A stretch of 62,895 bases of DNA, filler included, from Kipferlia bialata (taxonomy: Eukaryota): the NCBI GenBank assembly GCA_003568945.1. It is 4 parts of 4 records of this genome, joined end to end, with 100 filler letters (N's around TTAATTAATTAA, not from the genome) between each part and the next. Parts side by side here need not be neighbours in the genome. Positions count along the whole stretch, not along the records: positions 1 to 25,869 come from BDIP01000059.1; 3 more parts are not named here. One strand, written 5' to 3'. This document shows positions 1 through 59,295 of this stretch, piece by piece (position 1 is the stretch's first letter; the number at the start of each line of letters is the position of its first letter). The notes under the pieces were generated by a model. The model searched no databases, had not been told where the DNA came from, and worked only from the letters and a program-made list of their open reading frames with translations. The position numbers were made by a program, and so were the translations under genes.

Positions 1-14
1 TAGAGTAAGTAAGG

Positions 15-55
<41 letters not shown>

Positions 56-94
56 CGACACAGGGCAGACAGGTTGGGGGCATAGGGGCCTAGA

Positions 95-138
<44 letters not shown>

Positions 139-250
139 ATCTACCTGGAAGTGTTGACAGCAGTGCCACTGCGTCTGCGACTCTTCTTTCTATACACCCT
201 TTTCATATAGATATAGTGTATATAACATAATACACACAATATATATGGTA

Positions 251-3096
251 CCTGGTAGTGTCGACAGCAGTGCCACTGCATCAGTCAATGTGAGTCTCCC
301 CTGCACCATGTCGGCATGGGACAGGGTGTGGGAGGCAAGGGAGGAGTCGTAGTACCTGATGCCATGGAGGTAGGCATCACACCTGGATATGAGTGCATGG
401 ATAATGAAAGTATATACGTATATAATAATAGGGTACCTGTGTGCCGGTGACTCCGCTATGCCCTTGGCCAACAGACCCAGGGAGGGGGAGAGAGAGGGAG
501 TGGCCTTGAGGAGAGAGGACAGAGATACAGCGGCAGCATCCCCAAGAGACAGGTCAGTCTCCCTCTCTCTCTCCCCATGTTCCTCCCTCAGTGGGTGCTT
601 GACTGGTGGTACAGCCATACTGCGTCCTAGAGACCCCTTGGCTGCACTGGGCGATGCTGCCTCTCTCCCCTTCCCTATCTGCATGCGTCTCCTGCCCTCC
701 CTAGTCCTCACCCGTCGTGTCACTCCATGGGAGACATGGTCTATGTCATACCCGAAGTCTACCTCTCTCTCTCTCTCTCCCTCTGTCTCTGTCTCTGCCT
801 GTCTATCCCCCGTGGCTGTGTCCAGTAAGGCATGGACCAGTGCACTGCTCTGGCCATCGGACCCAGAGACCTGGGATGAATCATACTCTTTACAATCTAC
901 ACACTGTATATACATGTATACTTGGCCATCGGAGCCTGAGACCTGGGATAAGACATGGTGTACACTACAAATATATATATATGTTAATATATTATATATA
1001 CATACATATATATCTGGCCCTCGGAGCCTGAGACCTGGGGGGCAGAGGTCTCTTACAGGATCTGTCATATATTCAAAGATATACGTTTTACACCATACCT
1101 GTGCCACGTCTGCCACGATTTCACATATACACGATATATATAATACATACAGTATACATATATAGTAACAATTCATGGCATGTACTGTACCTGTGCCACA
1201 TCTGCCACCAGGCTGTCCGCCAGTCCCTCTGCTCAATCATGATTTCATATAAACTATATATACTATATATACTCTACATATAGAGAGACAGTAGATATCT
1301 GATATACCTGTGCCACGTCTGCCACCAGGCTGTCCGCCAGCCCCTCTATCCCTGTTGACACAGAAGGGGGGAGGGACAGGGAGGCAATGGCCCTGGGGTG
1401 AGAGAAAGAGAGTGGCAAGATCAAATAGTAATCTCCTCTTGTATGTATTAGTGCACACCAATACCCTATATATCGTACCTCAGTACCGGTGGCATCTCCT
1501 GCAGTGCCCCCAGTGGGTGTGTGGGTGCTGTCTCCACTGCCTCTGTCTCTACCTCATCTGTCTGACAGGGGGTGGTATCGGTAGGGACCTATAGGGTCAG
1601 TATATACACGTCCAACTGTATATGTACATGAGTGGGTATAAGTATAGACACACACCTTGCTTGTCTGTGTGTGCACTGCTAGTGTGACAGTGGGTGGTAT
1701 CTCACACACACCCTCTGCAGGGGATAGGGAAAGGTCCAACCCACACACCACAGGGTCTGTACCCATACTCCTGTTAGTCTTGGCCACCTGTACCCCTATA
1801 TGCACAACCTCCTCAATGGGCACCTGGGTGCATGCATCCTCTCTCTCCGTCTCCCTCTCCACATGCTGCACTGACCGGTGTACACTAGATAGTAGGTGGG
1901 GGTCACTGCCCTTATGCACGAGAGGGGGTGTTGTGCATATGGCGTCACTGGATGTGTGGGTGGTGGGTACCCTAGCAGAGACACCCACCGAGACTAGAGA
2001 GGGGGGGATGACATCAGCCTCAGGCTCGGTGTTGGTACATGCATCCACACAAACAGTCTCGCTCTTCCCATCCTCCTTGTGTACTACAGGTGCCTCCTCG
2101 GGCACTGCTACTTCCCTGGGAGGTGTAGGTATGGGTATATATACACTCTGGACACCGATGGATGCAGTCTCCACCCTGGGTGCAGGGGTAGGGGGACGGG
2201 GCAGAGGCATCGAGGCCTGAGTGCTACTCTCCACACTGTAGGACTGGTCAGTGAAGGTGCCTGATACATAAGACAAAAATATGGATGTACATATGCATAT
2301 TACTATACTACTACACTATATGTCTTGTCAGTGAAGGTGCCTGGGGTATAAGACATATACATACATGTAACATACATATATACATACTTATACTATATAC
2401 CTGTTGCAGCTGTGCTCAACGGTGTCTTGCTGCTACCTCTGTTTACCATGTGTCTCTTCCTCTCTCTGGAGCACTGAATACCTAGTTTGAGTACATATAC
2501 CGTATATATATACTATACATATATACAATATATACTATACATAGACTCGGACACACGTATATATGTGGCACACTATATTGTTGCATTCAGTAACATTTCT
2601 CCATGTCTTTACCATACACTATACCTGTAGATGCTGTCTCCACTGTAGGCAGGGGTGGGGTAGATACCCTCTCCTCCTCGGGGGTGTCTCTCTTTCCCAC
2701 TGTCTCCAACTCAGCCTCTGCATCAATATTGGTCTGGCATCCTGTGTATCAGTAATAGTATACATATATACCACATGTATATGTACTCAACCAGTGTATC
2801 CATTGCCCCATATCTACTATATACCACCATTTACCTGTATCCACCCCCCTCAGAGATTGCATCCCCCAGGTACTCTCTCTCTCTCCCCCTCTTCCCTTGT
2901 CATCCCCTCGCCGCCAGACACCCGCCTACGATAAGAGAGAGAGAGAGAGAGAGAGAGATAGGAAGATACAAGAAGACAAAGAGGGAGGGAGGAAGCATAC
3001 ACGCCACATACCTTTGGAGACGGTGCGTTGGGAATGGATATCCGGGGGAGGGGCTGAGGTGAGAGGAGAGTGAAAGAGAAACAGAGGGGGGGGGAG

Positions 3097-3139
<43 letters not shown>

Positions 3140-3361
3140 GTACCGGCAGGATGGCTGGGGGGGACGGGAGGGTCAGGTTGGGACACTCGCTGGGAATTAG
3201 AGGAAGACGGGATAGGAGAGAGGGATGCTAGGACTTAGGCAACACGAACACAATAGAGAGAGAGCGAGAGCGAGAGAGACGGCGAGGCCTCACCTGTCAC
3301 TCAGTTGCACCATCTCATCTTCGCCCCTGTCATCGATCAGGGAGCTGGGGGGTGAGACAGC

Positions 3362-3401
<40 letters not shown>

Positions 3402-3644
3402 CATCAGGGAGACCAGAGTATCAATACCTCATAGGCACTATGTCGCTATGCCTCTCCCCCCGGCGCCTCTGCACATACCGATATGCCTGGAAGTCAGTAG
3501 CGAGCGTAGTGGCCCAGGCAGAGAGAGAGTCACACCGGCCCAAGAGGTAGTATAATACTATTACATGCACTATACCTGGTAGGCATGGCTGGCAGCAGAT
3601 GCAGTGAGCAGGGAGACCAGCACCCACACAGCTGTGGCCACCAT
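251..3644 (-). CDS. Multi-exon hypothetical protein, low-complexity/disordered; 3' end probably runs off the window, start uncertain
   Basis: GC-rich coding-like blocks (e.g. ~435-870, ~1657-2260) separated by AT-rich introns with minus-strand GT donors and ccccag acceptors. Candidate ATG at 3644 (MVATAVWVLVSLLTASAASHAYQ). No recognisable domain. Confidence 0.5.
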
Positions 3645-3983
3645 GGCTGCAGGGCCTCTCTATGCACAGTACTAGCAGGTACTGGGTCTTATATATACAC
3701 AGAGGTCGCCTCAAAAGACACATCGGTTGGAACTGACATAAGGGTGTAGCGTTCGTTTTTGTTTAGTTCTGACTATCGTCAATTGACTGCCTTTCAATCA
3801 GTCCCTGTATACGAGTGAGAGTATAGGGTGACTTGAGGTCGTAGGCCCTTCTGTGAGTCTTGGAGGGGAGACAGAGAGGGAGAGGGAGTGCCAGAGTGGC
3901 TCCCAGACTGCCCCCTGTGTTACTAGTGTAAGGAAGAGAGACAGAGACAGAGAGAGAGAAAGAGAGAGAGAGAGGTCTCGGCC

Positions 3984-5544
3984 ATGCCCCGGCTGATAGA
4001 GCAGCTGGAGGCGCATCTGACATGCATAGCGAGACTGACCAAGAGGGAGAAGAGGGTCAGGCCCATGATGGATAGGTATGTACTCTACCTAGTTCATTCA
4101 TGTATATATACATACATGTATATATATGTGGCATCCTACAACATGTGAGTGAGTATAGATGTATCAGAGAGAGAAGGGGGTCAGGCCAATGATGGACGGG
4201 AGAATATACTCTACTATATACGTATGATTGTGCCTACATGTATATATATATAAACACATATCAAGATCAGGTCCCTGGAGGGATAAGTATAATGCTATGT
4301 ACGTGCGTATACATTGACTATGTGACTATATCATACATGTGTTTCAAGATGCCTCCCATCATGGATAGGGGCACATTCTCCCAACCCTTTGACTACCCCT
4401 CCCCCCACTGCCCTTCACTCCTTCTGCCTCTTGTGGTACTCTCTCTCTGTCTTTGTTTGTACCATGTATTTATTGCTCTGTATCAGTACTCTCTAACAAT
4501 ACCTTTCACTGCTCTCTATCACTGGGCTCCGTCACCACTCTCTATCACTACTATCCATCTCTATGTTTAACTGTCAGTGCCCAGGAGGTGGGCTTATGTA
4601 CTGTGAGACTGAATGTATACTTTGAGTATATACATATAGCTTATTCCTTAACTGTCAGGGCCCAGGAGATGTGCGAGAGACTGAGTGTATATGTATATGT
4701 ATTGCATATATATATGTGTGTGTGTAGTATATATGTATCGCAGGTGTATCCCCTCTCCTTACCCCCAGGGCCCAGGAGATGTGTGATAGACTAGGGGGCA
4801 GTGTGTCACCGACAAGTGGGGGTGATGCAGGAAGAGAGAGCACTGATTCCCTGGATACAGTGCAGAGGGCAGGGCTGAGGGATAACTCTGAAGTGCTGAC
4901 AGGTATACATGTGTATATATCTATATGTATATATATACATATATATACAGAGAGAGAGGGCACAGACACCCTGGACACAGTACATATTGCAGGGCTGGGA
5001 GACAACTCTGAAGTGCTGACAGGTATGGATACATGCATGTATACATTGTGTTATGAGAAAAGGAGGGAGAGAGACATTTCAGAAGAAGTGCTTGCATGTG
5101 TACGTACTCTGAGAGAGCAAAGAGAGGGTGTGTATATAGACTAGTGCAGATATTCTCCTGCTCAGTATGTGTGTATTTATGCCCCCTCACCCCCAGGCCT
5201 GTGTGTCCGGTGTCTGGAGGCCAAGCAGCCCAAGGTGGTGTCGGCAGGTACTGATACTGTGTATATACTATATATATAGGTGTGTGTGTGTATATTCGTT
5301 TAATACATATGTCCAAGGTGTTGTCGGCAGGTAGGGTACCGCATAAATATGGGTGTTTCCTGCGTACTACTCTATTGTGCGCTCAATCACACTCCTGTAT
5401 TCTGTATCAGACACATCCATCTCTCGGTAGTGTGGAAATGCTGATATGTGTCTTCAACCCTCACTCTACCCTCTATATATATATGTCTATATGCGTGTAT
5501 AGCCCCTGGCTTTGACCTTCTGATGATGGTGCTCAACAGCAATG

Positions 5545-5584
<40 letters not shown>

Positions 5585-8500
5585 TATCTACATATATATA
5601 TATATATATATACCTCACTCCAGGCGTTGACCTTCTGATGTGGGTCCTCAACACCAATGTACTCAGCTACCACCCAGAGGTATGTCATAATATTTAGTAT
5701 ATGTACTGTGAGTTATATATGTGTAGATATGCTCAGCTACCATACTGTCATTGTATACATGATGCATGATATATGTGTGTGTCAACTGGCTATGGTTCGG
5801 GTTTCTATCTTAGTTAGTTAGCCATTCTAATATCAGACACACGGCTCCACCCCCTCTGGCGATGCCCTGTCCCATGCATCCAACCTGGTGCTGCACTCCA
5901 CACTCAACCAGGTACGGGTATTTATATATGTATACAATGCAGTAAAGCACAATTGTATGCTCATATGCGGATACCCTGTCCAACCTGGTGCTGCACTCCA
6001 CACTCAAGCAGGTTCTTTGTATGAGTAGAACATACCTTCCCTTCTATACATTTATAGTGTACGCATACGATGTATACTCATCCCTCTAGATCCTGGATGC
6101 CCTTCAGACTGGGGTGTCCAAGAAGCTAGGCCTCAGTGGACACACAGCGGCACTCCAGGTATGCAGCGATATTAATATATGTGAGTATTCATAAGTATAC
6201 TACTCTCTCCCTCCCCTGGCCGCCCTCCAGCTGATCCCCCTGTCCCTCAACATATCTAATACAGTGGCAGTGCTACTCTATTCATATCTGTATATCTTCT
6301 ATATAATAGTATATATATTTATATATATTTATGTGTGTGTGTGTGTGTGGATTCCCCCCAGGCCGCCCTCCAGCTGATCCCCCTGTCCCTCAACCTGGCC
6401 CCACCCATAGCCCAAGGCAGGGAGAGAGGGGGGGAGAGAGACGATCTCTCGGTGCTGAAGGTGTGTCAAGATAGTGGTCTATAATTGCTCCACTATTAGT
6501 TGCTCTCACTGGATACACCCTCCTGATCACCCAGGCCGTGCGTGTTGTGGCTGGGCAGTGTATGCTTCTTCCAAATCTATCCATTCATATCAGTATTGTA
6601 GTGTATACTATTTCCAATTCTATCCGTTCTTATCAGAATTGTAGACTATCTCATATATATATGTATATATATGTATTCCTTACTGACCCCTCAGGCTGTG
6701 CGTGTTGTGGCTGCGGGTCTTGACCCCTCCAAGCCTAGTGGGCTGTCAGAAGTGTCGGTGTCGCTGCTGGGGCAGGTATGTAGTGGTATCTATTGTATAT
6801 ACTATTACTATTTATACTCTATGGTCTTAAGTGGCATGTACATGGATATATACATATATATTCCAAGTGGGCTGTCAGAGGTGTCGGTGTCGCTGCTGGG
6901 ACAGGTGCGTATAAGTCTATAATATGTGTGCTCAATGATAGCATAGTCCCTGATATATACTATAGTGTATCCCATGTCAATATATACCGGTTGTCCCTTT
7001 TATGATCAATGATCTCTCCCCTGACCCCCAGGCCGTGTCCCTGATAGTGGGCATGGCACACTCATACCACCAGGTACAGATGGTACTATATACATTACAT
7101 ACATATACATATGTATGCATATGTATACATATATATATATGTGTGTGTGTGTGGTCTATAATGATTGGGTTTCTGTTTGACATGGCACACTCATACCACC
7201 AGGTACAGTGGACATGTATGTGCAGTGTGTCTAGTTTTGTATAGTAGTATGGCAGTATGACACTCTACATTGTAAACTCTAATAGCTTCTCTAATCTTAG
7301 GTCTCCCCCGTCATGGCCAGCATAGCAGCAGCAGCTGTGTCCCTGCCCATGTCACAGCAGGAGACAGGTGGGGGTATACATTTGTATTAGTATAGATAGT
7401 TATACATCATTATATTATGGATAACAACTGTATATACTTAGTAGTATCAGTTGTGTCCCTGCCCATGTCACAGCAGGAGACAGGTACTGTATCCGTTATT
7501 TGGTAATATATAATATACATTTACACTGTCTCTCACCCCCCAAGAGGCCCCCTCCAAGGCCTCTCCCTCCACCCCCCTGCCCCTACCACACCTGGTGCCC
7601 AGTATAGCACTGGACCTGCTGTATGACTCACTCACTTGTCACAGGTAACATACTGTATATATAATTATTCATATATGTATAGATAGATAAATATAGATAT
7701 TGATTAATATACACCTGGTGCCCAGTATAGCACTGGACCTGTTGTATGACTCACTCACTTGTCACAGGTAGAGAGTGTACTATACTGTGTATAGTATTAT
7801 GTTTCTACAGTTCCATCAGTGTTGTACCCTGACTCCAGCCATCGGTTTGGCGACTCCCTCCGCCCTGTCCTGGGTGTGATAGCAGCACCCCTCCTGACGC
7901 ACATTCCAAGGTGCATATGTATATATATATACATGTGTGTATTTCTATATTCACCTACATTTGTATATATCTGTGAGATAGCAACACCCCTCCTGACGCA
8001 CATTCCAAGGTGCATATGTAGTATATATGTGTGTATTTCTATATTCACCTACATTTGTATATATCTGTGAGATAGCTGCACCCCTGCTCACACACATACC
8101 AAGGTACAGATGTATATATATACGTGTATATATATATATATATATATACTTGTATAATTCATGTTGACACACATGAGGTAATAATACCAGATTAGTGATT
8201 ATGTATTTACCACTCTTTTCATTGTATGTACTCACACCCAGTGTCTTTCACCGGCTGAGGCAGGGGCTGACAGTCAAGGGCGGCACAGTAGGTATCGTCT
8301 CTGGTCGTATATCTACATTATTACACCAGTGTGTATAGGTGTATATTGATGTATATATACACCCTCACCCCCAGGCATGGGCACCAGTTCCCTCCTCACC
8401 CACTACATCAGATGCATGCGTGTTCTGTTGGAACTGCCCCTATCATACAGGCACTCCTGCCCTAGGGAGATAGCAGTGGTGCTCACACACTTGAGGTGTG

Positions 8501-11500
8501 TTAGTTAAGTGCAGTACTCTTGTTTACTTGCGCTCTCTGTATGTATGTATATATATGCGTTTGTTGTAGCAGTGGTGCTCACACACCTGAGGTGGGGAGG
8601 GATGTGCTATATATATGCATCCATTCGTTCATATATGCCGCTGTATATTCATCTCTATTTCCATCAACCGTACTCATGTACCAGGTCTGTGCTCTCCTGC
8701 CCTGTGCCCACCCTACAGCTGGTGGCAGCACTCTGCATCAGATGCATATTCAGGTGGGGAGAGTACATATATATACATGGGTGGATTGGTATCATACCAT
8801 ATGTGTACTTCTCAAGTGTTGTTCAACACACATGTACTAACACCCCCCAGGGGCGAGGGTGTTTCAATAGTTTTGTACGTATTATTTGTAATATAGATAT
8901 TGGAGTGTTCATATATAGTAGATTATATATTACATCATTACCTCTAACCCCCCAGGGGCCAGGGCACTCTGAGTGACCTTGTCTCTCTGTTCGATGCCCA
9001 CTTCCTCAGTCTGGTGCCACCCACATCACCAGGTATATGCAGTATATGTATGTGCACTATATATACACATCCCCAGTTAGTAAGTATATACACGTACCTC
9101 TTACCCCCAGGCGATGCCACCTGCGGCCCCCTCATTAGGGTAGCATTTGTTTCTATAGAATGTTTCTTCTTTCATCTATATAATTGTGAGTATCTCTTAC
9201 CATCAGGCGATGCCTCCTCCGGCCCCCTGATCAGGGCACTGACCAAGGAGACAGCCATACTCATGGTGTCACTGCTGGATGAGCTAGGTATACATGTATA
9301 TACATATATATGGTATATGTAACATACATGCAACGTATATATTTTATATGTATATCTATATACAGTGGAACTACCCCCAGGCACCCCCTCCCCCTCTGAC
9401 CCTGATGTGTATATTCGATAATATTTATAATAGTATTAGTATATGTATAATAATAATAATAATATATATATATGTATAGCAGTATTCACGTCAATACAGT
9501 AGAACTACCCCCAGGCACCCCCTCACCCTCTGACCCCGATGTGTACGATGGACAGACAGAGGCATCGGAGGCAGACCTGAGGTGAGTATACATATATATA
9601 TAGAGAGAGAGAGAGAGAGCGTGTGTGTGTGTGATAGAGAGAGAGAATACTGTTTACCCTTACTCTACTCACCCCCAGGGAGCGCATTGAGACTGCTGTG
9701 TCTGTGGCCGGGAGCCTCAGTCTGGCACAGACACCACCAGGTATATATACTAGGGAGGTATATATATAGGGAAGTGTATGGGTAAATCTGGATATTATGT
9801 ATGGGATGGGAGTTTCTTTCTCAGCCTGGCACAGACACCACCAGGTATGAAATTTGTATAGTTAATTATAGGTATCGTCGTTCTCACCCCCCAGGCTCCC
9901 TTGTGACTTAGCGGGGTCTGGGAAATCTTAGAGATAGTCATTATGTATCAACAGTGTATATGTAACATTTTGTACCCCTCACCCCCCAGGCGCCCTTGTG
10001 ACTGAGCGGGGTCTGGGTAGGGATGCTGGTCCCCTGATGGTGTGTCAGATACCGGCATATCTACAGGGGGTGGAGAGGTATGTATCACGTATGTATATAT
10101 ATATATATATTTACATTGTAGAGAGTATGTGTATATATACTACATGGATGTGTGGTGTGACAGATACCGGCATACCTACAGGGGGTGGAGAGGTGAGTGT
10201 GCATGATTACATTCACAGTGACATACATGCCTACATACACTAATAGTGAGTATGTGTACTTGTACCTGAAGTACTATTTATTCAGGGAATTATCTATATA
10301 TATTGTGTATCTGACCCCCAGTGACGAATCCTCCTCGTCTGAAGAGAGCGAGGAGGGGGAGAGAGAGACCGAGACAGGGTTTGGGTCAGAGGTCCTGAGG
10401 GAGAGAGAGAGAGTGGAGACACAGAGGGTGACACACACGACAGAGAGGGAGAGAGAGAGGGCACTTAAGGAGGACACCCCGACTACTGAGTCACAGGACA
10501 TGGACGCGGTGTTCCAACAGGGTGAGTATACTCATTGAGGACATATATATACATACTATCTATCTATATATATATATATATATACATGGAGTCACAGGAC
10601 ATGGATGCAGTGTTCCAGCAGGGTATGGTTATGGTGGTATATATACATTTATATATATACATACTATATATCTATGTATATATATATATATCTATGAAGT
10701 CACAGGACATGGACGCGGTGTTCCAGCAGGGTATGGTTACAGTGGTATATATACATTAATATATATATATATATGTATCGCTGTATATATATATATGTAT
10801 ATATTAATTGATTCATTAATACATTGATATATATCGTGAGTCACAGGACATGGATGCGGTGATCCAACAGGGTGAGTGTACTCATTGAATACATGTTTAT
10901 AGGATGTACTCATATATACATATACATATGTATATATGCTCACCCCCCAGGCATGGCCCGTCTGACCCAGTAGTATATCACCTATACATATATGTATGTT
11001 GTCTTGTATATATATATATATACTTATATATCCGTTATACCCCTCTCACCCACCAGGCATGGCCAGGCTGACCCAGGTGGCCAGACACCCCTTCCCATCC
11101 ATGGACATGGGCAGGTATGGCATGATGTATAGTATGGATAGTAAGAGTATACAGTCAGTATCTTTGTGTATATGTTTGTATCCCCATACCATACCACCCT
11201 CTCCCCTCCTGTCTCTCACCCCAGAGAGGGTGTGTGGACAGAGAAGGACGTCCCATTCAGCAGGTATGGTATATGTGTATATATATGACTCTGCAATGTA
11301 TATAGTCTTTAAGGCAGTGTACTAGTGTATATACACAGTAATAGTCATTGGGATGGTCTTCGTGTGCATTTACACACTATCATTTTTACACATGCGCAAC
11401 GCCATAGGAAATGATGATGTCAAAACTGCCTTTCGTATAATTGTGTACATCCCTATACTTAGTGTGACCTCCCAGGTTCTGTCTGATTGAGACAGCGGGT

Positions 11501-13681
11501 GAGGGGGAGAGAGAGAGAGATGGGGACAGGGGTACTGACCAGTGCAGTCCCTCCAACATATGCGATGGACTGGTGAGATGTGTTTCCAGCCTCATAGCAC
11601 TGTCAGACACTGCGGCTCAGGTACATCTGATTCATATATATGCCTAATGTGTAGTATATAGATATGTACATAGATACATGGTCACATGTGTGTCCAGCCT
11701 GATAGCACTGTCAGACACTGCCGCACAGGTACGTATATATAGTAATATGTATATATCTATGTATGTTCATATGTATATATATATATGTATAGAAAGAGAG
11801 ATAGAGTTCGTGTTTCCAGCCTCATAGTACTATCTGACACTGTGGCTCAGGTATGTATGTGCATATTCATACACATACGCCTATCTAATATCATTGAATA
11901 TGTGTGGTATAGTGATAGTATTTCTTTGCCAACCCCCAGGATACCGTGCAGCACCTGACCCTACTGTGTATAGATATAGTATTATATGTGAACTGTTGAT
12001 TATGATAACTTACACTAGGAGACCGTGCAGCACCTGACCCTGCTTGTCCTGCTAGACACCCTCGTCAGAGTGAGTGAGAGTGTCAAGGGTATGGCAGAGG
12101 ACATGGGCAGGGAGAGAGAGGGAGAGGGAGAGACAGAGGGAGGGGGAGAGAGAGAGGCAGAGGGAGAGAGAGAGGGAGAGAGTGATGGGTCACCCACCCT
12201 GTCCACCTTCACCTCTGTATGTCTGTCCCTGAGTGATGTACTGCTCAGTGCCAGTAACGGACTCCTGGCTGCGTGTAGGTAGGGGTTATCCGCATATGTA
12301 TACACTATATATGGCCTTAATATATACTCCTGGCTGCATGTAGGTAGGGGCAGATGTGCACTTGTAGTTACATATATATAGGAACCCCAGCATGTAAGTA
12401 GGGTAGCAGAATGAATACAATACATTTAGATACATTACGTTTGCTTTAGTATATGTATGTCACCCCCCCCCCCCTCCTCACCCCCAGGGATGGCAGGGTG
12501 GCCCTGTACCCACTGTACATAGCACACAACACAGGTGGGGTTATCAGTTGTACTATATGCTATGTGATATCATTCGCCAAGTCTTCGTCATACACATGTC
12601 TGGTCGCCGTGTATATATGATTGGTATTGTATTGTGTATTTACGCTCAGAGAGTTATAACATATATATATAGCACACAACACAGGTGTGGATGGTACATT
12701 TGGTAACGCCAACAATCTATATTCCCCCTTTGAGTAACTGTCTCATGTGCTCTCTCTCCCTCCCTATCCCTCCTGCCCCAGCTTCCACCATTATGTCCTG
12801 TCTGTCTCTATATTTGTTGTATATATTGCAATATAGTATACTCTCACACTAGCTTCTGCCGTTCTATCCTGTCTGTCCCTCCCTCTCTCTCAATAATATT
12901 ATATTACATCCTCACTCCAGCTTCTGCCGTGTTATCCTGTCTGTCCCTGCCTGCCTCTGTACACTCCGATGCCTTAGGGGATATAGCAGTCAGTGCAGTC
13001 CAGAGGATGGCAGGTATAGGGCAATATAGATAGAGGATATACTATACTATACTGTACTATACTATACTAGGTATATATATGTATAGGTATATGCCCTGGG
13101 GGATATAGCAGTCAGTGCAGTCCAGAGAATGGCAGGTATAGGGTATATGTTCATATTTATTAGATATATGGATATAGAGAGAGAGAGAGATAGAGCGTGA
13201 AAGAGATGGCAGTCAGTGCAGTCCAGAGGATGGCAGGTTGAGATATGGAGTGTAGTATGTGTATAGTATACTTAGCATTTACATACCCATCCCTGACCCC
13301 AGGTCTTGTCTATGTCACCACCTGTAGACCCAGGCTGTCACCCAGCATGTGCCTCAAGAGCCTCAGGTTCTTGATATATACCTGTAATTGTTATATATAG
13401 AGAGAGATCCATAAGTATGTGTATATATCTGGCATATTACCCAGCATGTGCCTCAAGAGCCTCAGGTACCTGTAACATGCATGTTATTGTTCTATATATA
13501 GAGAGATCTGTAAGTATATGATCTTCTGGTATATCCCGCAGGATGTGCCTCAAGGGCCTCAGGTGGGTGTTCTTTCTATATATATTCATGTTTCCTCTCT
13601 CTCTCTGTATGTATACATCTTCTAACCTCAGAGCATCTGGTGCCCTAGCCCCCTCCTCCTCCTCCCTCGATGCAGATGCTG

Positions 13682-13727
<46 letters not shown>

Positions 13728-13796
13728 TATACATATATATCTTACACCAGAGCTTCTGGCGCCCTAGCCCCCTCCTCCTCCTCCCTCGATGCAGAT

Positions 13797-13836
<40 letters not shown>

Positions 13837-14448: not shown

Positions 14449-14489
<41 letters not shown>

Positions 14490-15126
14490 GAACATTCGTG
14501 TGTCTATGTCCACCCCTCACCCCCAGACGGTGCCTGGCAGAGTGTCCTGGCCGCACTGCTAGGGGGGGAGGTCGGACTCAAGGTGGGGGGTATATGTATG
14601 CGTTAGTGTACGCTTCAATAGTGTACACGTATGTATCATAATAGAATTGTATATAAATACCCCTAACTCCTAGGACGAGTGGCAGCGTGCCGGAGGGGTG
14701 GAGAGAGAGAGGAAGAGTGGCCCCCACCCCCCTCTCCCACACACATACACAACGCCACATGCTGCATACACCGCCATCAGGTATCGTCACACGTACCTAT
14801 GGTTGTGCACAGTGTTTCAAATTGCAATGCCTCGGTATCTCTAAGTCACTATATTTACACTTTCACCCCAGGTCCTTCCACACCGACATGCCCACCCTCC
14901 TATCCTCCAAGGGCATGGGCATGTATACATATATACATATATATATACATATATATATATACTAAATGTGTACCATTGCACTAACCTCAGGGCCTTTCAT
15001 ACTGATATGCCCACCCTCCTATCCTCCAAGGGCATGGGCATGTATGTCACTGCGCTCACGGCACTGGCACAGCACGATATAAGGTGGGATACATATACAT
15101 ACTATACATACTACACAATACTTTGG

Positions 15127-38000: not shown

Positions 38001-41000
38001 ACTGACACTGACCCCAGGCCAAGCTGGACAGGGCCGAGTCCCTGACCGGGTCTCTGTCACAGGAGCAGGAGAGGTGGGGCAAGCAGGTGCAGGAGGTGAC
38101 CACCGAGACCACGCAGACAGTCGGAAACGTGCTGACCCTCGCTGCATACACTACCTATGCCCTCGTGTACCCCACGGATCTTAGGGTGGAGCTTCTGAGG
38201 AGGTGGAGGGCCGTGCTCGACGACTTCGACATTGCATTTGACGAGGTATGCATCACTTCCATCTCTGTACATTCATAGTGTGTTTCTCTGCAACCCTCTC
38301 TTACCCCAGGACATGCTGATCGACGAGGGACTGTCCACCGCTGAGGATAGACTGCAGTGGCTGGACGTGGGTCTCCCCAACGACTCCATCTCCCTTGAGA
38401 ACGCAGGTGCCCTGTTCAGTGTGAGTGACGACACACCCAGGGTGCCCCTCCTCATCGACCCCGCTGGCCAGGCCGTGGCCTTTGTCAAGAGGGTCCTCAA
38501 GGACAAGAAGCTCGTGGTGGGGTCACCCCTGGACAGGGACTTCATGCAGAAGCTGGAGCAGGCCCTGCGGTTCGGCCTCCCCCTGCTTGTCACCGATGCG
38601 GAGGTGTTTGACCCCGTCCTCAACCCCATCATCGACCCCGACACCCTGGCTAGGAGGGTCAGTCTCAAGGGCAGGAGCATGAGCGTCGAGATCGCAGGCC
38701 GCAGCGTCGACTACTCCCCCTCCTTCCGCCTGATCCTGACCACCACCAACGTGGCTGCCGCCTTCCCACCCCACATTGTCTCACAGACGAGGGTGCTCAA
38801 CTTCAGCGTGACCGCCGCCTCTCTCTCCTCCCAGATCTTCAACGCGGCCCTCTTCCTCGAGCGGCCCTCTGTGGGCAGGGACAGGCAGGACACAATGAGC
38901 GCAGAGAGGCGCTTTGCCGTGCACCTGCGGTCCCTTGAGAACCAGCTTCTGGAGCTCATCTCCACCGCTGGTGGCAAGGTGCTCGAGGACGACGAGGTGT
39001 CGTCTGCCCTGTCTACAGTGAAGAGAGACGCCGCAGAGGCAGAGGCCAACCAGGCTGAGGTGCTGCACAAGAGGGCTGAGCTCGACAAGGCGTCCAGTCT
39101 GTACGAGACCCTGGGAGCCACCGCAAGTGGCATCTTTGGCCTGCTGGACAGACTTGTCACACTCGACGACAGCCTCGTGTTCTCACTCCCCTTCTACCAG
39201 GTATGGATTTGTGGATATTGTTATATTCATATACTCCTGCACAGTACCCCACCCTTCCTTTACCCCCTAGGTTCTTGTCAAACCAATATGTATATATGTA
39301 AATATCTATTCTAACCCCTAGGTCCTTGTCAAGAGGGCCCTGGCCAAAAGGTGCGTGGTGCTGGCTGCCCAATCAGAGGAGGACGAGATAGCCACTGGCG
39401 GCACCATGATAGGGGACGCACACTCCCCCTCAGCCACCACTAACCGTATGAACCAGGTGGGGCTCGATGCCTATACTCTAGACTAAATCATTATATTGTT
39501 CTCTCTCTCACCCCTAGGTCATCCACGAACTGTCCATGGACGTGCTGATGTATGTGGGTGCCGCCCTCCCAGCCAGACTCAGGGCCGCCTTTGCTCTACT
39601 GGTCCTGTACACAGTCAACACAGACACTGTCGACATCTCGGACGATGCACTGCGCCAGTACCTCACCCCCCTCCCTGCTCTTCCCTCCCTCTCTGGGGAC
39701 GTTGGTGACATCCTGGCCTGGAGAGAGGCCGTTGTGGCACTGTCTCCTGAGCTGAGTGTTCTTCCCTCTGACGACTCCCTCCTGCCCACCCTCGAGAGTG
39801 TGTGTATGGGAGAGGACGTGCACGCTGAGGTGCAGGACCTCCTGACCTCTGCTGCCAGACCCACCCCCATCCAGGCCTCCCTCCTCAGTCTACAGTTGGT
39901 GCACAGTGTGAGGCCCAGTGCAGTCACCACCCTGGCCAACTCTGTCATCCACAGGCTGAGTGACGGACAGGACGTGCTGGGCACCATTGACGCCATGTCC
40001 CTGGGGGATATATGCGATGTGTATGGCGCACAGGGGTGGCCCGTGGTGGCCCTCAGTGCCCCTGGATACGACCCCACACACTCTGTCGTTGAGCTGGCCC
40101 AGGCCCAGTCTGCTAAGCTGGACGTGTACAGCATTGGCTCCAGGGACTGTGTGACGGCCTCACTGGTCAAGCAGATAGGCCAGGCCGCACAGGCTGGCAG
40201 GTGGGTGCTGGTCTCGAACCTCCACCTCGCCAGTGCAGACACCCTCACCTCTCTGCTACAGGTGGCCAAGAGAACTAGGAACAGCAGAGGCCCAGGAGAG
40301 GCTGTTGCCACTCCCTCAGGCAGAGGCAGGGGCAGAGGCATGGCTGGCAAGGGAGACAGGACACACGACAGGTTCCGTCTCTTCTTCTCTGCTCCCGTTG
40401 GATCCTCTCTCCCCGCCTCCCTCTACGCCGAGAGTGCCCGTGTGGTTGTCGAGCCACCCCCTGGTCTACAGTCCCAGGTCCTGCAGGCAGTGGGGAGGGT
40501 GTTCCCAGGCACCCAGCCCGAGAGAGACAGACACAGACGCCCTGCTCAGACACAGAGAGACAGGCTGCTCTTCCTGCTATGTGTGCTACACGGCGTGTTG
40601 GTCAGAAGGGCCGGGTACCTGCCCCATGGGTGGACCAAGGACCCTCAGTTCAGCATGGCCGATCTGCTAGCAGGGGAGAGGATGGTGAACGCATGGCTGG
40701 ATAGAGTGGCCGGCAAGAGCGACAACATCATGCCGTCCAAGATACCCTGGGTGCCCATCAGGTCCCACCTAGTCACCACCATCTATGGGGGCAGGCTGGA
40801 GTCAGACTACGACAAGAGAACACTCAGGGCCCTGGTAGGGCAGATATTCACAGCGGAGGCCTTCGAGACTGGGTACGTGCTGCTCGGCAGTGCTGAGGCC
40901 CCTGTTCAGACCGAGGGTGTGGAGGTGGTGGAGGCAGTCGAGACCGACACCCCGACCAAGGATGCCTCCTACACTGTGCACGGCCTGCTGACGCCTGATG

Positions 41001-52800: not shown

Positions 52801-54834
52801 CTGCGTCTAGTGCTGCCACCCCATGGCCTATGGCTCTCTCGATATCAGTGCTCGTGCCAGTGCCTACGGCCTGCAGGGAGAGGGACCAGACACCTGCGTG
52901 TGAGAGGGTCCTATAACATGATTGATGTCACAACTTGTCACACAACTTGTCACACCTGATGCGTCTCTTGTGAATGCAGTGTAGAAACCCTTGACCTCAG
53001 GGTATGTGTTGGTAGTAGTGACCACTAGGGTGTTGTCATCGCCGAAGGAGAAGTCAGTGACACCCAGTATATACTCTGAGGGCAACTGCTGATGGTGAGA
53101 GGGAGAGGCAAGAATCGCAGCATAGAGAGATTGTCTCCAGTCAGATATAGAACACAGACAACTAGATACACCACGACCAGTACACACATCCTCATATATC
53201 ACACACACCAATGGCAGTGCGAAGCATCTATAGTATAGAGCAGATGGTCCAACACGTACCTCCCCCTCAGTCCAACTCCCCTCTGAGAGACAGTAGAGGG
53301 TGGGGACAGTGGCGCCAGCGACAGTGACAGCAACGCAGGTGTCCGACATCTTGAGTCTGCCAGTGCCGGAGACCTGGACACCAGAGAAGGACCTGGGGGA
53401 AGAGGGACACTAAACATAGAAATATGAGTATATAAACACACATATATATGTATCGATACATGTACATTTAGCACACTGTGTCGGGAAGGACAATGGCGTG
53501 GGATACAAAAACCCACACCCAAGAATATATTAATATATGTATGAGTTCGGAAGAACTTGTGTAGACAGAGATCCAGAGAGACGTACTCGTTGAGTGCAAA
53601 GTCCCCGGAGCCGTCTGCAGTATACACAGCCACCGCCCCACTGTCAGAGGTGTTGCTGAAGTATATGAAGCTGGTGGCGAAGGAAGTGCCATCGGGTGAC
53701 ACTGCAATCTGAAGTGAACAAGCGGCAGGGAGATAATGTCAACTGAGGATTTGATTGACAAGGATGCACATGTGATACGTACCTCGTCAGGGCCGGCGTT
53801 CCTGTTCTTACCAGCTTCTGCCACCGGGATAGTCTGGGCGAGAGAGAACTGGGTGCCAGCTCATAGTGAGAGGGAGAGAGAGAGAGAGAGAGAACTGGGT
53901 GCCAGCTCATAGTGAGAGGGAGAGAGAGAGAACAGAGAGAGGTATCACTGAATGGGAACTACTCTACCTGTGTTGAGGGTGTAGCGCAGCACACTTCCTG
54001 GTGTGGTGTATGAGTAGTCGGTGATGAGCAGCTGGTTCTAGAGGTCAGATGACGGTGAGAGAGGGATGGTCATGTGAGATGGGTTACACAACCATCACAG
54101 GTTGGGTGGCAATGCGCAGGTGGCCAACTATTAACTATTATTATAGTAAATGTAATATAGTGAGTGTAGAAGGGTGTATCTATATGCAGCCTCACCTCAC
54201 TAAGTGCCACGCCCCTGCCGATACTGCCACCTGATATTAGTATGTGTCAATGTATCAATACACACACATATACATATATATACATATATATGTATGTGTA
54301 TATCAGACAGGGGAGAAGTGACACCAACACTGTTCCCATACGAATCCATCTCGACCCAACACAGTCAATCTCTCCACCGGGTTGCGTACCCATAGAATGC
54401 AGAGCATGTAGTATGTATCCATACCAGAGATGGTTTGTACCAGCTTCCACTCATTGTCGCCTTCGACGTAGTGGAACACATAGACGTCACTGTACGTGAG
54501 ACAGAACACACAGACAGGTGGGGGAGGGGGGGGAGAGAGAGAGAGATACATATACACATTTATATGACCAGTCATGGCATATAGTCTGCAAAACCAGCAG
54601 GTGTGAACTCACATATAGTACTACCCAATAATTAAGGTATATGGAACATGACATACAAGAGCAGTGAATACTGTGTGCATTGGGTAGAGTACAGAGAGTC
54701 TGAATTGCACTCACGTGTACTTCCAGGACCCCACACATGCCCACGTCCCATGCATGTCCATGATCTGACATTAGATAGAGGGAGGGGGGTATTGAGAGAG
54801 AGAGAGAGAGATGTCCATTACCTGAGGGCAGAGA
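46887..54834 (-). CDS. Large type-I membrane surface protein: propeller-like N-terminal region, about 9 invasin/filamin-type Ig-like repeats, TM helix, acidic tail; 5' truncated
   Basis: Repeated 'S(T/V)I..P..V.AG....V.V.L.DxxGN' units (DSLGQ, DAEGN, DQYGN, DSYGN x2, DEYGN, DQYAN, DTVGN). Propeller-like strands (DVYVFHYVEGDNEWKLVQTI; SPDGTSFAT...GAVAVYT). TM segment GFAIGIPCVLVVAGAVLCYVFW near 47280-47345. Confidence 0.75.
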
Positions 54835-54934
54835 NNNNNNNNNNNNNNNNNNNNNNNNNNNNNNNNNNNNNNNNNNNNTTAATTAATTAANNNNNNNNNN
54901 NNNNNNNNNNNNNNNNNNNNNNNNNNNNNNNNNN
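54835..54934. other. Artificial contig linker
   Basis: N44-TTAATTAATTAA-N44. Confidence 0.95.
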
Positions 54935-55172
54935 GGTGTCGGACAGGGGGTCAGGCAAGGAGGGCGGGGCCGGGAGCGGCCACCCCCCCGTCCCCCCCCT
55001 GTCCCCCTCCAGACTGCTGTCCATTGGTGTCACTCCTATGACACCTGCAGAGGGGGGGCTGCTGGACGATGCGTCCGACGATGACTCTGGGAGCGAGGAC
55101 TCGTTCTCAGCCAGACCCCCTCTGCCCAACCTACACAGGTGCCTAGGGTCACAGTGTGTATATGTGTATGAT

Positions 55173-55211: not shown

Positions 55212-58160
55212 TTACACTGACCCAGGCGCCAGACCGCAGACCCTGCCAACACTGCCAGGACCGTTGAACTGGCCAGACAGGCCATGGTGCAGGGCCAGTC
55301 CAGGCACTCCGTGGACTCGCCCAGCACTGCTACTGGTCACGTCAAGGGGCATAGAAGGGCTAGCTCCATCCCGCACCCCTCTGCAGGCGAGTACTCGAGT
55401 GGAGACAGAGGCTCAGACAGGGCGGTCGGGAGGGGCGTCAGCAACGCCTGGAGCATCGTCCCCGGCCATGCCCCCACCCTGGTGAGTATGGGTATATATG
55501 GATATATTGGTATATGGATATGGAAATATGGTTTATTTTTATATGTCGGTATATGTCGATATATGGATATATGGATGTGATCATGGGCACAGGTGACTTA
55601 CGTATGTATACCGAGTTCTGTCATGTACCCGTCAACTGTGCAGTGGCATGCATGCCCCTATGACCGCTGACCCCAGGGACGGGATGGGTTTGGTACCCTC
55701 ATGGACTCCATGGTGTCCCACAGACACTCCTTCATGGCACCCCCAGACACCATACTCCGGCACATCAGGTGGGGGCAGTGTACATATGTATATATATATA
55801 TACATATATATATGGGCATGCAGTGCACTGTGTATGTGTCTGTTGAGACCCTCCTCACCTCAGGGACTTCAAGGAGAGGCTGTCCTCTGCGGCCCTCGCC
55901 CATAAGACCCAGCACAAGTTGGAGCATCTCGCTGACTTTGATGTCGAGTGCATGTATGTCAATTCCCTGTTGACCCTCTCCTTTGACGCCCATCTGTGGG
56001 CCAGGGACCAGGGCCGTCTGGCCATGCCGTACCTGGGGTTCCTGCTGCACCACTTCTATGCGCTGCAGGTGGGTGGTACAGGCCCATGGTACATGGTGGA
56101 TGCGGTGCAGGGACTGGTACTCCATTTACAGGGGGCACTGATACTGATACTACTACTGACACACAGGGTGTAGTCAGTGTGCGCCGCTTCTGTGCAGCCC
56201 TGGTCGGGTTCAACAACCTCTATCGGTGAGGCACTGTCTATGTATATCTATATATATACATGGTATGTCATGACCTTGACCCCCCTCCCTCTCTCCCTCT
56301 CTCTCTCTGTCTCCCCCCTCTCTCGACTGACTCAGTGACTCCTCCATGTACCACAACAGCGTGCATGCAGCGGATGTGCTGCAGATGGTGGCAATGATGG
56401 TGCACAAGACAAGGATGACAGGTGGGGGGGATCCTGTGGATGTATGTACATGTATTTATATATATATATATATGGCGTGGCAGCACCCTTGCCCCTCCTA
56501 GTATCTGGCACCTCACACGTCTGAGGTACGATACTGATACATACCGCCCTGACCCCAGCTGCGGGTAGGACCATCTGCCCCCTGCACGCTGTGTGTGTCA
56601 TACTCCTGGCCGCTGCGGCACACGACGTGGAGCACTGCGGGGTCAGCTCAGACCTCCTGGTCAACACAAGGTATGGGACCATACTCGCCATGTGTCTGTG
56701 TGGTTATACATCCAGCACAGGTCAGCGTGGAGTCAGCCTAGACCTTATTGTCAAATACATATCATAGATCTCATACTTGGTGCGCCTCACCCAGACATGC
56801 CCTTTACCTCGTCTATGGCACCGTATCAACCCTGGAGAAGTATCACGTGGCCCTCGGTGTATATGTGCTGAGGTATCCCTTGTTATGTGTAGCGGGGTCA
56901 TATCTGGAGTTTGTGGCGTTATTGTGAGGCGGTTGTAAGTGCCTCAGCTCTCTCCTACAACTCCTCTCCTTCCACGTCTCCGTCTACTGTGATACCCTCT
57001 TCCCCTTTCCCACCCCAGGTACTATGGCGTGTTTGACCTCCTGCCCAAGCAAGAGGCAGAGCAGAAGCTGGACCTGTTCCGGCTCTTGGTCCTTTCCACA
57101 GACCCAAAGGTACTCCACACGTACACACATATAAAGAAAACAGCAGGGAGTCAACTCATCCTAATAGTGATACTGCATCAGTGTGACTGTTGCATCATTT
57201 GCCGCTTACCCCCCAGACACTGTTTGAGTCCATCAACCAGCTCAACAACCTGCACTGGGACGCCCCCACTGTCAAGCTGATGGGCGGGAAGGGCCTGCAG
57301 AGCATCCTGCTGTGCTCCATCATGAGGATGGGGGACATCAGCAATGCCTCCAGGTATCCATGGGGCATGGATTGGGGCATATATTGTTAGTGTGCCAATT
57401 TGGACGCTTCCCTGTCCCCCGATGTCTGTATTCACCCCTCCTGACCTCAGACCCTTCCCCGTGGCCAAGGCCCACTCCCTCAACGTCATGTCTCCTTCTC
57501 TCTCTCTCCCTCTCTCTCTCTTAATGTATGTATGCATCTATATATTCTAACACAGACCCTTCCCCGTGGCCAAGGCCCACTCCCTCAACGTCATGGCCGA
57601 GTTCTTCCACACAGGGGACCTGGAGACAAACCATGGCCTGAAGGTAAGAGTAATAATAGTAATATTAGGGGTCTGACTGACTCTGCCTCTGTGCTAGTAG
57701 TATAGTGTGTGCCTCCGTCCAGCCTTCGCCCTCAATCCCAGCTAGGCACCTTCCGAGACAGGTCAGAGGGCTCAGACGGCATCAGGCGGTGCCAGGGGAG
57801 CTTCATCGAGTCTGTGGTCAAGAGGTACACCAAGGCGCTGACTGCCTTCTGCCGCAGCCTGGCCCAGGACGGCAAGGCCTCCCTCAGAGCCCAGATCCTG
57901 GAGGAGACGCCGTACACCCTGGAGGCCCTGCAGGATCCACTGACCGGCACGATGCCCCTGGCCACGCTGCTGGAGACGATGCTATCAGCCATGGAGGAGA
58001 ACCAGAGGCTGTGGGCTGAGGTGGGTGCATGGGCTCAGTCTCTCTCCCTTTCGCTCCCTCGTCCATCTACATTCCCCATACTTCTCCCTACCCTCACCCC
58101 CAGCTCCCTGATGATGACTTTGATCTGGTGGAGTGCCTCCATGCCAGGTGGGACGAGTGA
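54935..58160 (+). CDS. Class I 3',5'-cyclic nucleotide phosphodiesterase (PDEase_I domain), 5' truncated
   Basis: YHNSVHAADV, AAAAHDVEHCG, LEKYH, LSTD, GDISNASRP, EFFHTGDLE and CQGSFI in successive exons; last exon LPDDDFDLVECLHARWDE*. Confidence 0.92.
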
Positions 58161-59277: not shown

Positions 59278-59295
59278 GTGGGTGGGGTGGGGGGT

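What the first reader, a model, noticed from the sequence alone, without database searches (positions are those of the whole stretch)
7877..15045. Echoes differ from the real exon mostly at synonymous sites, like divergent alleles rather than decaying junk
Seen, by codon comparison: ~7880 vs ~8072 IAAPLLTHIPR has 5 synonymous and 0 replacement changes (gca/gct, ctc/ctg, ctg/ctc, acg/aca, att/ata). ~11579 vs ~11687 CVSSLIALSDTAAQ is 4/0; ~10488 vs ~10589 is 3/0; ~6737 vs ~6866 is 2/0; ~14871 vs ~14990 is 4/1. ~10950 vs ~11057 has Arg CGT vs AGG. The 13632/13751/13854 copies have Ala gca/gct/gcc and Gly ggt/ggc. A neutrally decaying intronic duplicate should mutate without regard to codon position. 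Inference: both versions were coding during most of their divergence, so echoes would be pieces of other alleles or homologues captured by recombination or templated break repair. That would be an intronic archive of past alleles and indirect evidence of genetic exchange.
Basis: partly seen in the sequence, partly recalled or inferred. Interest (0 to 1): 0.88.

Follow-up and report, generated by a model that had tools for sequence, protein, structure and literature searches.

The report
Introns that archive old gene versions
In the free-living protist Kipferlia bialata, most introns of one gene carry short copies of the neighbouring exon ends that differ from the working exon mainly at silent codon positions, so they are likely leftover pieces of former alleles, which would let one genome reveal past recombination in a group where sex has never been seen.

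Summary
Observation confirmed and extended. The window is Kipferlia bialata; my 39-exon model equals public protein KIPB_000508 (1215/1215 aa). 29 of 38 introns hold 14-70 nt copies ('echoes') of the adjacent exon end with an intact GT or AG. Over 54 exon/echo pairs (two genes), 58 of 88 distinct changes are synonymous, dN/dS 0.20 (0.13-0.31); a neutral copy beside a fully constrained exon predicts at least 0.5 (38.7 synonymous, P 3e-5). Echoes differ from each other synonymously too (22 of 28). Similarity largely stops at the splice site. On the 949 nt laid, DNA contigs show the echoes in cis with no second haplotype, and an RNA-like contig splices two echoes out. Echoes also carry decay (two stops). 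Best reading: fragments of diverged alleles captured by recombination that began in an exon and ended off-register in a non-alignable intron. The donor alleles are not seen, the pathway is inferred, sex is not shown (mitotic exchange fits too), and the much faster divergence of intron flanks is unexplained. The scan noted a similar echo pattern in a sea-urchin gene (read there as plain tandem duplication), nothing on this genome; ten paper searches found no description.

The parts
3984..17740 (+). Host gene, 39 exons modelled, 1215 codons without a stop; public protein KIPB_000508; Mon2/Sec7 DCB-like by Atlas features (lead only); 29 of 38 introns hold echoes
252..3644 (-). Head-to-head neighbour gene, 13 exons modelled, 640 codons open; six exon/echo pairs, 6 of 7 changes synonymous
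5970..6011 (+). Donor-type echo of exon 5 with an in-frame 9-nt indel (DALSHASNL vs DTLSNL)
6866..6906 (+). Donor-type echo of exon 8 end (6737-6775) plus GT; 2 synonymous/0 replacement
7452..7485 (+). Donor-type echo of exon 10 end; skipped in the RNA-like contig (joint 7367 to 7545)
7711..7769 (+). Donor-type echo of exon 11 end (7588-7644), 57 nt, 1 synonymous; skipped in the RNA-like contig (joint 7644 to 7839)
7839..7910 (+). Exon 12, the working copy of IAAPLLTHIP; RNA-like contig matches it letter for letter to 7906
7977..8011 (+). First echo of exon 12 end, 0/1 (A to T), intron flank clearly homologous: looks like a young in-cis duplicate
8071..8105 (+). Second echo of exon 12 end, 5 synonymous/0 replacement, 4 of 5 transversions
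8567..8593 (+). Donor-type echo of exon 14 end, 1/0
9109..9140 (+). Acceptor-type echo of exon 17 start (S to T, S to C, then two synonymous changes at the edge)
9379..9411 (+). Acceptor-type echo of exon 18 start, 2/0
9826..9922 (+). Donor echo of exon 19, a complete-looking 50-nt inner GT..AG intron, and acceptor echo of exon 20 (0/2, TAG stop)
10153..10194 (+). Donor-type echo of exon 20 end (TGA stop near its edge, 1 synonymous)
10589..10873 (+). Three donor-type echoes of exon 21 end (10589, 10698, 10837): 3/0, 1/0, 1/1; intron starts fall in two types, order X Y Y X
10949..10970 (+). Acceptor-type echo of exon 22 start, Arg CGT versus AGG
11686..11852 (+). Two donor-type echoes of exon 24 end: 11686 (4/0, all transversions, private to this echo) and 11810 (2/2)
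11938..11962 (+). Acceptor-type echo of exon 25 start, 0/1
12326..12345 (+). Donor-type echo of exon 25 end, 1/0
12669..12884 (+). Donor echo of exon 26, inner intron, and two acceptor echoes of exon 27: 12782 (STIMSCLSL vs SAVLSCLSL, 3/3, below the detection threshold, not in the count) and 12853 (3/0)
13099..13238 (+). Two donor-type echoes of exon 27 end (1/0, 0/0)
13439..13564 (+). Two donor-type echoes of exon 28 end (0/0, 0/1)
13630..13808 (+). Two acceptor-type echoes of exon 29 start (13632 4/0, 13751 2/0), each ending in a (TC)n run
14325..14343 (+). Acceptor-type echo of exon 30 start, 0/1
14870..14926 (+). Acceptor-type echo of exon 32 start, 4/1
15163..15205 (+). Donor-type echo of exon 32 end with an in-frame 9-nt indel
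52385..52590 (-). Echo family in a third, distant gene: working exon end 52549, echoes ending 52486 (3/0) and 52388 (4 synonymous, 3 replacements)

Best explanation
The echoes are spliced-out intronic copies of exon ends that likely come from diverged alleles of the same gene, likely captured by recombination between homologous chromosomes that started in an exon and ended off-register inside an intron. Shown: position, intact splice dinucleotides, silent-site bias, presence in cis, removal from the transcript at the two junctions read. Inferred: alleles differed by about 15% at silent sites and much more in introns, so pairing could start only in exons. Inferred pathway: after a break in an intron, one end invades the other allele at the next exon, copies that allele's intron and 14-70 nt of the exon beyond it, and is then end-joined to the other broken end, which still carries about 75 nt of the old intron (one-sided invasion; an unequal crossover gives the same product). 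Copying one way gives donor-type echoes, the other way acceptor-type; repeats give stacks of two or three. Only products that leave the outermost GT and AG usable survive. After capture the echo decays neutrally, which adds the replacements and stops. The echoes are probably tolerated by-products, not functional elements.
For: dN/dS 0.20 (0.13-0.31), below the 0.5 floor for a neutral copy; 58 of 88 changes synonymous versus 38.7 expected, 34.5 with finer strata; so at most about 20-30% of the summed divergence was non-coding (inference). The same detection steps run on simulated neutral echoes give a mean synonymous share of 0.44-0.45 against 0.66 observed. In ten multi-copy families only 3 of 31 variable sites are private to the exon; 22 of the other 28 are synonymous (P 3e-4 against 0.45). 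GT kept in 31 of 33 and AG in 19 of 21 echoes; echo sites score like real ones, donor median 11.4 vs 10.2, acceptor 14.1 vs 11.5, while identity falls from about 0.93 in the exon to near background within about 10 nt of the GT: the profile of two functional versions. Pairs whose intron flank is still alignable have the lowest ratio (18 synonymous/3 replacement). Two internal indels, both 9 nt. Replicates: gene 2, 6 of 7 synonymous; third gene, 3/0 and 4/3. In cis at even depth, no second haplotype or paralogue on the stretch laid; RNA-like contig skips the echoes. No paralogous protein in three searches. Context from papers: metamonads lack Ku/DNA-PKcs and rely on homologous recombination and alternative end joining (PMC8516963, passages); crossovers in a hypervariable fungus fall in exons (PMC4209137, abstract).
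Against: No donor allele was seen: no other isolate, no metagenome hit, so the allelic origin is inferred. Intron flanks are as unlike as about 45% substitutions plus indels while silent sites differ by 15%; alleles alone do not explain this gap without faster intron turnover or exon-limited gene conversion. Spacers (median 75.5, minimum 40) are as long as whole control introns (median 72), not the broad range a random break predicts; selection against short spacers has to be assumed. Junction microhomology is weak (P 0.12, 0.10, 0.027 for 2-, 3-, 4-mers). Replacements are not clearly conservative at the main setting (P 0.14; 0.02-0.03 at looser ones). If the exon's silent rate were twice the neutral rate, P is only 0.035 (gene 1). 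One simulated neutral batch (60 runs, about 47 changes each) reached a maximum share of 0.70. Some copies are plainly young in-cis duplicates (7977). Reads were laid on 949 nt only, from one sample, as contigs that drop rare variants.
Confidence: 0.65

Rival explanations
1. Plain in-cis tandem duplications (slippage or flap errors, unit about 100 nt) across splice junctions; the copy decays neutrally, the exon changes only at silent sites, and AT-rich intron parts scramble quickly.
For: Narrow unit length, median 107.5, range 65-200; 12 of 48 pairs keep a related intron flank; a few copies fit well (7977 is 0/1 with a 33/35 flank); stops and G>T changes show decay; the sea-urchin case in the scan's notes was read this way (untested).
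Against: Predicts dN/dS of at least 0.5; observed 0.20, P 3e-5 or lower. Predicts neutral echo-versus-echo differences; 22 of 28 are synonymous. Does not explain perfect echoes whose intron is unrelated from GT+3 on.
Confidence: 0.1
2. The donors were not alleles of one population but a lost paralogue or the second subgenome of a hybrid; capture happened by the same recombination before the donor copy vanished.
For: Would explain introns that no longer align; silent divergence is fairly even across pairs (overdispersion P 0.09), as for one donor lineage; exon 21 copies fall into two intron types.
Against: No paralogue in protein searches or among contigs laid; some families show three different intron starts; echoes always come from the immediately adjacent exon end, as for aligned homologues.
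Confidence: 0.13
3. Echoes are kept by selection because they are used: as rare cassette micro-exons, or as recursive or nested splice points that cut long introns into pieces of about 100 nt.
For: Splice sites as strong as real ones; 34 of 38 exons end in AG, so most donor echoes form AG|GT; units never under 65 nt and spacers of intron size; my gene finder could thread 56 exons through the gene without a stop (I did not check which extras are echoes).
Against: Only 1 of 21 acceptor echoes has a good GT after it; 5 of 33 donor echoes have even a weak in-phase AG; two echoes have stops; the RNA-like contig skips both echoes tested; the public model uses none inside exons 1-39. Recursive use would keep splice signals but not codons. 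It could still be how these introns are removed.
Confidence: 0.09
4. Assembly artefact: two haplotypes of a heterozygous diploid stitched in tandem.
For: Would give exactly a silent-site bias with diverged introns; the DNA run may be the source of the assembly; only 949 nt were laid.
Against: Independently assembled contigs cross spacer-echo junctions with no other letters, at depth 310-472 for spacers, inner introns and exons alike, with no echo-free joint and no loose ends at exon edges; 0.96 of sampled 31-mers are in the run while 7.6% cross junctions (weak alone); stacks of up to four copies and stop codons do not fit two live haplotypes.
Confidence: 0.03

Closest known systems
One-sided invasion / homologue-templated break repair (Belmaaza and Chartrand 1994, seen only as a reference title in PMC4888836; mechanism recalled) and FoSTeS/MMBIR duplications (PMC4888836, passages)
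   Same: One end copied from a homologous template, the other joined without homology, leaving a short direct duplication near the break.
   Different: Here the product is fixed at most splice junctions of a gene, the template appears to be a strongly diverged allele, and selection has filtered products to those keeping the outermost splice sites.
Recombination in hypervariable species, Schizophyllum commune (PMC4209137, abstract and outline)
   Same: About 14% parental distance; exchange concentrated in exons, where similarity is high.
   Different: Clean crossovers seen directly in a cross; no echo-like leftovers in the abstract. Here only leftovers are seen, and introns are far more diverged.
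Intron gain by tandem genomic duplication or by break repair with direct repeats (PMC3296678, passages)
   Same: Local duplication that includes a splice signal.
   Different: No new intron position is made; an existing intron grows, and the copy bears the mark of past coding selection.
Duplicated splice junctions in a sea-urchin gene (scan note e1-7787398) and the human F7 intron 7 repeat named there
   Same: Exon end plus splice site repeated in the next intron.
   Different: Described as head-to-tail copies at about one exon end in six; here 29 of 38 introns, intron flanks mostly unrelated, dN/dS 0.2. Not checked by me.
Nested introns, stwintrons and recursive splicing (PMC7138796, PMC10156609; search listing only)
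   Same: A complete-looking inner GT..AG intron inside a longer one; AG|GT points inside introns.
   Different: The inner intron does not interrupt a splice signal; stepwise removal is untested here.
Duplicated mutually exclusive exons (recalled; e.g. SCN exon 5a/5b in search listing)
   Same: Tandem exon copies under purifying selection.
   Different: Echoes are partial, lack one of the two splice sites and are skipped in the transcript read.

Membership tests
Neutral in-cis tandem duplicate of a splice junction | dN/dS of exon versus copy at least 0.5 | tested here: not met
   0.20 (0.13-0.31)
Neutral in-cis tandem duplicate of a splice junction | Intron part of the unit duplicated with similar divergence | tested here: not met
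   12 of 48 flanks above the 95th percentile of unrelated introns; median score 24 versus 47-62 simulated at 15% substitutions
Neutral in-cis tandem duplicate of a splice junction | Copies in cis, direct orientation, adjacent | tested here: met
Homologue-templated capture (one-sided invasion / unequal exchange) | Inserted piece comes from the homologous position and was coding while it diverged | tested here: met
Homologue-templated capture (one-sided invasion / unequal exchange) | One junction non-homologous or microhomology-joined | tested here: inconclusive
   distal junctions are abrupt; intron-likeness of terminal k-mers P 0.12, 0.10, 0.027
Homologue-templated capture (one-sided invasion / unequal exchange) | Donor allele exists or existed in the species | not testable with these tools
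   only two runs of one sample listed; no metagenome relative
Cassette or mutually exclusive duplicated exon | Own acceptor and donor, frame kept | tested here: not met
   1 of 21 and 5 of 33 (weak sites), two stops
Cassette or mutually exclusive duplicated exon | Present in mRNA | tested here: not met
   two of two echoes with both flanking exons on the stretch are skipped in the one RNA-like contig; rare isoforms are invisible in contigs
Intron gain by tandem duplication | Duplication creates a new intron position in coding sequence | tested here: not met
   echoes lie inside introns bounded by the outermost GT and AG; ancestral intron positions not compared
Recursive or nested splicing | Internal AG|GT or inner GT..AG of spliceable size | tested here: met
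Recursive or nested splicing | Stepwise intermediates or lariats | not testable with these tools
   only contigs are held for these runs
Haplotype-tandem assembly artefact | Half depth on spacers, echo-free joints or haplotype branches at exon edges | tested here: not met
   949 nt only
Mon2/Sec7 DCB-HUS protein (host gene) | DCB domain | tested here: inconclusive
   no Pfam hit; Atlas features 0.94, 180 of 256 shared, DCB clusters first

The most novel reading that the evidence does not exclude
K. bialata outcrosses between extremely diverged haplotypes, and its recombination, lacking Rad51A and classical end joining, regularly fails at non-alignable introns. Each failure leaves a piece of the partner allele with its splice site, so the introns of weakly constrained genes are stacked, datable archives of extinct alleles. 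One genome would then give allelic diversity (about 15% at silent sites) and evidence of sex in a metamonad, and its reduced spliceosome would be picking the outermost of several equally strong splice sites, perhaps by nested or recursive steps.
Probability: 0.4. Interest if true: 0.9.

Novelty: new variant of a known kind. Interest (0 to 1): 0.76.

Why it matters
[quoted passage not shown] If echoes are allele fragments, a single assembly records exchange between diverged homologues and the size of past allelic diversity, and with 124,912 introns in the genome (PMC5874029, passage) the idea can be tested at scale from public data. It also gives a route by which introns grow, and poses a splicing puzzle: a spliceosome with 87 of 174 surveyed proteins and no snRNA candidates found (PMC6679479, passages) ignores decoy sites as strong as the ones it uses. 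Gene finders can mistake echoes for exons.

Tried and rejected
No whole genome is held, so no genome-wide count. No RNA holder was listed as such; X2 is a guess by the tool, though its contig joins at GT..AG. Three protein searches returned only P0001 or nothing; they can miss short or crowded-out relatives. Metagenome scan: 117 pattern matches, none confirmed. Pfam gave nothing above cut-off for P0001. First gene-finder run had an off-by-one error and was discarded (fixed). CpG hypermutability (CpG o/e 0.26-0.31) was considered as a source of silent bias: 8 of 9 CpG-type changes are synonymous, but the bias holds within transversions (18 of 36 vs 0.21 neutral, 0.35 constrained, P 0.049) and non-CpG transitions (26 of 36, P 0.007). 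Detection bias was simulated. Target-site duplication with filler DNA was considered: it makes identical copies and gives no silent bias. Two-way gene conversion between echo and exon was considered: by reasoning it still gives a ratio of about 0.5. mRNA-templated copying was rejected because echoes continue into GT or follow AG, not the next exon. Programmed DNA elimination between the repeats: no echo-free joint in DNA contigs. BLOSUM and microhomology tests were weak. Six of the eight gapped extensions look like chance edge matches and were not counted as indels. Paper searches found no description of this pattern; subscription papers and supplements were not seen.

Full report
What the window is. 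The window is an intron-rich eukaryotic scaffold. A search with exon 25 returned one protein, P0001, labelled KIPB_000508 of Kipferlia bialata. I built the gene by hand before seeing that protein: 39 exons from 3984 to 17740, all GT-AG, 1215 codons without a stop; it equals the public protein at 1215 of 1215 residues, the public one running 18 residues further. So the frame used for all codon counts is secure. Pfam finds nothing above cut-off; Atlas features point to Mon2/Sec7 DCB proteins (0.94), a lead only. A second gene runs the other way from 3644 (13 exons, 640 codons open; hand model, not checked against an annotation).

Anatomy. An echo is a 14-70 nt copy of an exon end inside the adjacent intron. 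Donor type: exon, GT, AT-rich spacer, copy of the exon's 3' end, GT, intron, AG. Acceptor type is the mirror image. I found 54 pairs in 42 splice-site families (48 in gene 1, 6 in gene 2); the three copies after exon 39 were left out because the exon end lies beside a G run. 29 of 38 introns of gene 1 and 2 of 12 of gene 2 hold echoes, against 0 of 67 predicted introns in five control stretches at a lower threshold (a dynein heavy chain and an AAA ATPase gene by Pfam; the labels ClpB and Rab are recalled). Units measure 65-200 nt, median 107.5; spacers have a median of 75.5 and a minimum of 40, like whole control introns (72, minimum 45). GT is kept in 31 of 33 and AG in 19 of 21 echoes, and the sites score as well as working ones.

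The observation. Over the full set 58 of 88 distinct changes are synonymous, codon positions 1/2/3 carry 24/6/58, and dN/dS is 0.20 (0.13-0.31). The fair null is not an even spread but a neutral echo beside an exon that accepts only silent changes, which gives a ratio of 0.5. It predicts 38.7 synonymous changes (P 2.8e-5) with transitions, transversions and CpG changes treated apart, and 34.5 with finer classes (0 of 1e6 draws). A bootstrap over families gives P 5e-5. Four other threshold settings give 0.18-0.28. Simulated neutral echoes passed through the same detection give a mean share of 0.44-0.45 against 0.66; the maxima of three batches of 60 runs were 0.70, 0.59 and 0.50. If the exon's silent rate were double the neutral rate, P would be only 0.035 in gene 1, but nothing suggests that.

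The sharper test is among echoes. In ten families with two or three echoes, 31 sites vary: 3 are private to the exon, and 22 of the other 28 are synonymous (P 3e-4 against 0.45). The echo at 11686 has four private silent transversions where exon and second echo agree. Two clear indels inside echoes are both 9 nt (chance 1 in 9). A third gene 35 kb away repeats the pattern (3/0 and 4/3). Replacements lean conservative only at looser settings (P 0.14 main, 0.02-0.03 loose).

The boundary. Identity is about 0.93 in the exon part and falls to near that of unrelated introns within about 10 nt after GT; on the acceptor side an excess lasts 13-20 nt. Only 12 of 48 flanks beat the 95th percentile of unrelated introns. 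The median flank looks like 45% substitutions plus indels, while silent sites differ by 15%. Two working versions of a gene give this shape: exon and splice signals kept, intron free. The size of the gap is not explained, and I count it against a simple allele model. The 13 pairs with alignable flanks have 18 synonymous and 3 replacement changes, so even the best candidates for in-cis duplicates mostly carry the coding mark.

Real, in cis, and spliced out. Two runs of one sample hold the region. On 7160-8108, contigs of the DNA run X1 tile exon, spacer, echo and intron with no other letters, at depth 310-472 on the unique pieces, with no echo-free joint and no loose end at an exon edge; 8 of its 20 pieces and joints were shown. 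One 2325-nt contig of X2 joins exon 10 to 11 and 11 to 12 across 177 and 194 nt, skipping the echoes, and matches the first copy of exon 12. Limits: one sample, perhaps the source of the assembly; contigs drop rare variants; the other junctions were not read-checked. Cassette use is not supported: 1 of 21 acceptor echoes has a good GT behind it and 5 of 33 donor echoes a weak in-phase AG. No paralogue or second allele turned up.

How it most likely works. Shown: position, splice signals, silent bias, decay, cis arrangement, skipping at two junctions. Inferred: the pieces were coding for at least 70-80% of their summed divergence, so they came from another working copy; since they always match the immediately adjacent exon end, that copy was the aligned homologue. 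Inferred, weaker: recombination could start only in exons; one broken end copied the partner's intron and a little of the exon beyond, then was joined to the other end with part of the old intron still attached. An unequal crossover gives the same product and cannot be told apart here. Junction microhomology is weak. Products that kept an old acceptor or donor in a harmful place would be purged, and short spacers seem to be too. Metamonads lack Ku and DNA-PKcs and fornicates have lost Rad51A (PMC8516963, passages), which fits but proves nothing. I give the allele-capture reading 0.65, a lost paralogue or hybrid subgenome 0.13, plain tandem duplication 0.10, functional use 0.09, artefact 0.03. 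Sex is not shown: mitotic exchange between diverged alleles in one cell line fits as well.

What is known. Papers seen: PMC5874029 (first of six parts and passages; no hit for heterozyg, ploid or duplicat), PMC6679479, PMC8516963, PMC4888836, PMC3296678 (passages), PMC4209137 (abstract and outline); others as search listings only; no supplements. Ten searches found no account of echoes in Kipferlia or of allele fragments stored at splice junctions. The scan's notes hold nothing on this genome and one sea-urchin echo case read as tandem duplication. The ingredients are known: one-sided repair, exon-biased recombination in hypervariable species, duplicated junctions. Their product at this density, with a measurable coding signature, I did not find described.

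Verdict. Observation confirmed; interpretation supported apart from the step to sex; new variant of a known kind; interest 0.76.

Noticed in passing
window 17792-18013: The public protein ends in AVMGYKGG repeated; the last annotated exon appears to be an echo (about 17901) beside a G run, so the annotated C-terminus is doubtful.
   Followed up: partly
window 1-18000 versus 19150-39500: Echoes crowd in two head-to-head genes (31 of 50 introns) and are absent from 67 control introns; region, expression level or constraint could be the cause.
   Followed up: partly
window 4259-4369 and 4570-4590: More diverged echo-like pieces of exons 1 and 2 below the main threshold, still with similar amino acids; possibly older layers.
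   Followed up: partly
window 39264-39332: Short acceptor-type echo (11 exon nt, one mismatch) in the dynein heavy chain gene, below threshold; another 7-nt candidate near 29620/29674.
   Followed up: no
window 57448-57595: Perfect 40-nt acceptor-type echo ending in a (TC)n run in another gene.
   Followed up: partly
window 53846-53917: 46-nt head-to-tail duplication at an acceptor, bounded by (GA)n runs: a plain slippage duplicate for contrast.
   Followed up: no
window 6557-6644, 16190-16240, 55491-55576: Purely intronic tandem duplications and short minisatellites; introns here turn over by slippage as well.
   Followed up: no
whole window: CpG is strongly depleted (o/e 0.26 in coding sequence of gene 1, 0.41 window-wide) and TG/CA pairs occur between copies, hinting at cytosine methylation or deamination in this fornicate.
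   Followed up: partly
gene 1 exons 21, 24, 25, 29, 37: (GA)n microsatellites are read as coding ERERE tracts.
   Followed up: no
window 25870-25970, 54836-54935, 59179-59278: Scaffold gaps hold an artificial TTAATTAA spacer; the join order across gaps may be arbitrary.
   Followed up: no
window about 46900-54820 (-): Long gene with a likely membrane anchor near its end and repeated beta-rich segments, probably a surface protein; no Pfam hit for the one exon tested.
   Followed up: partly
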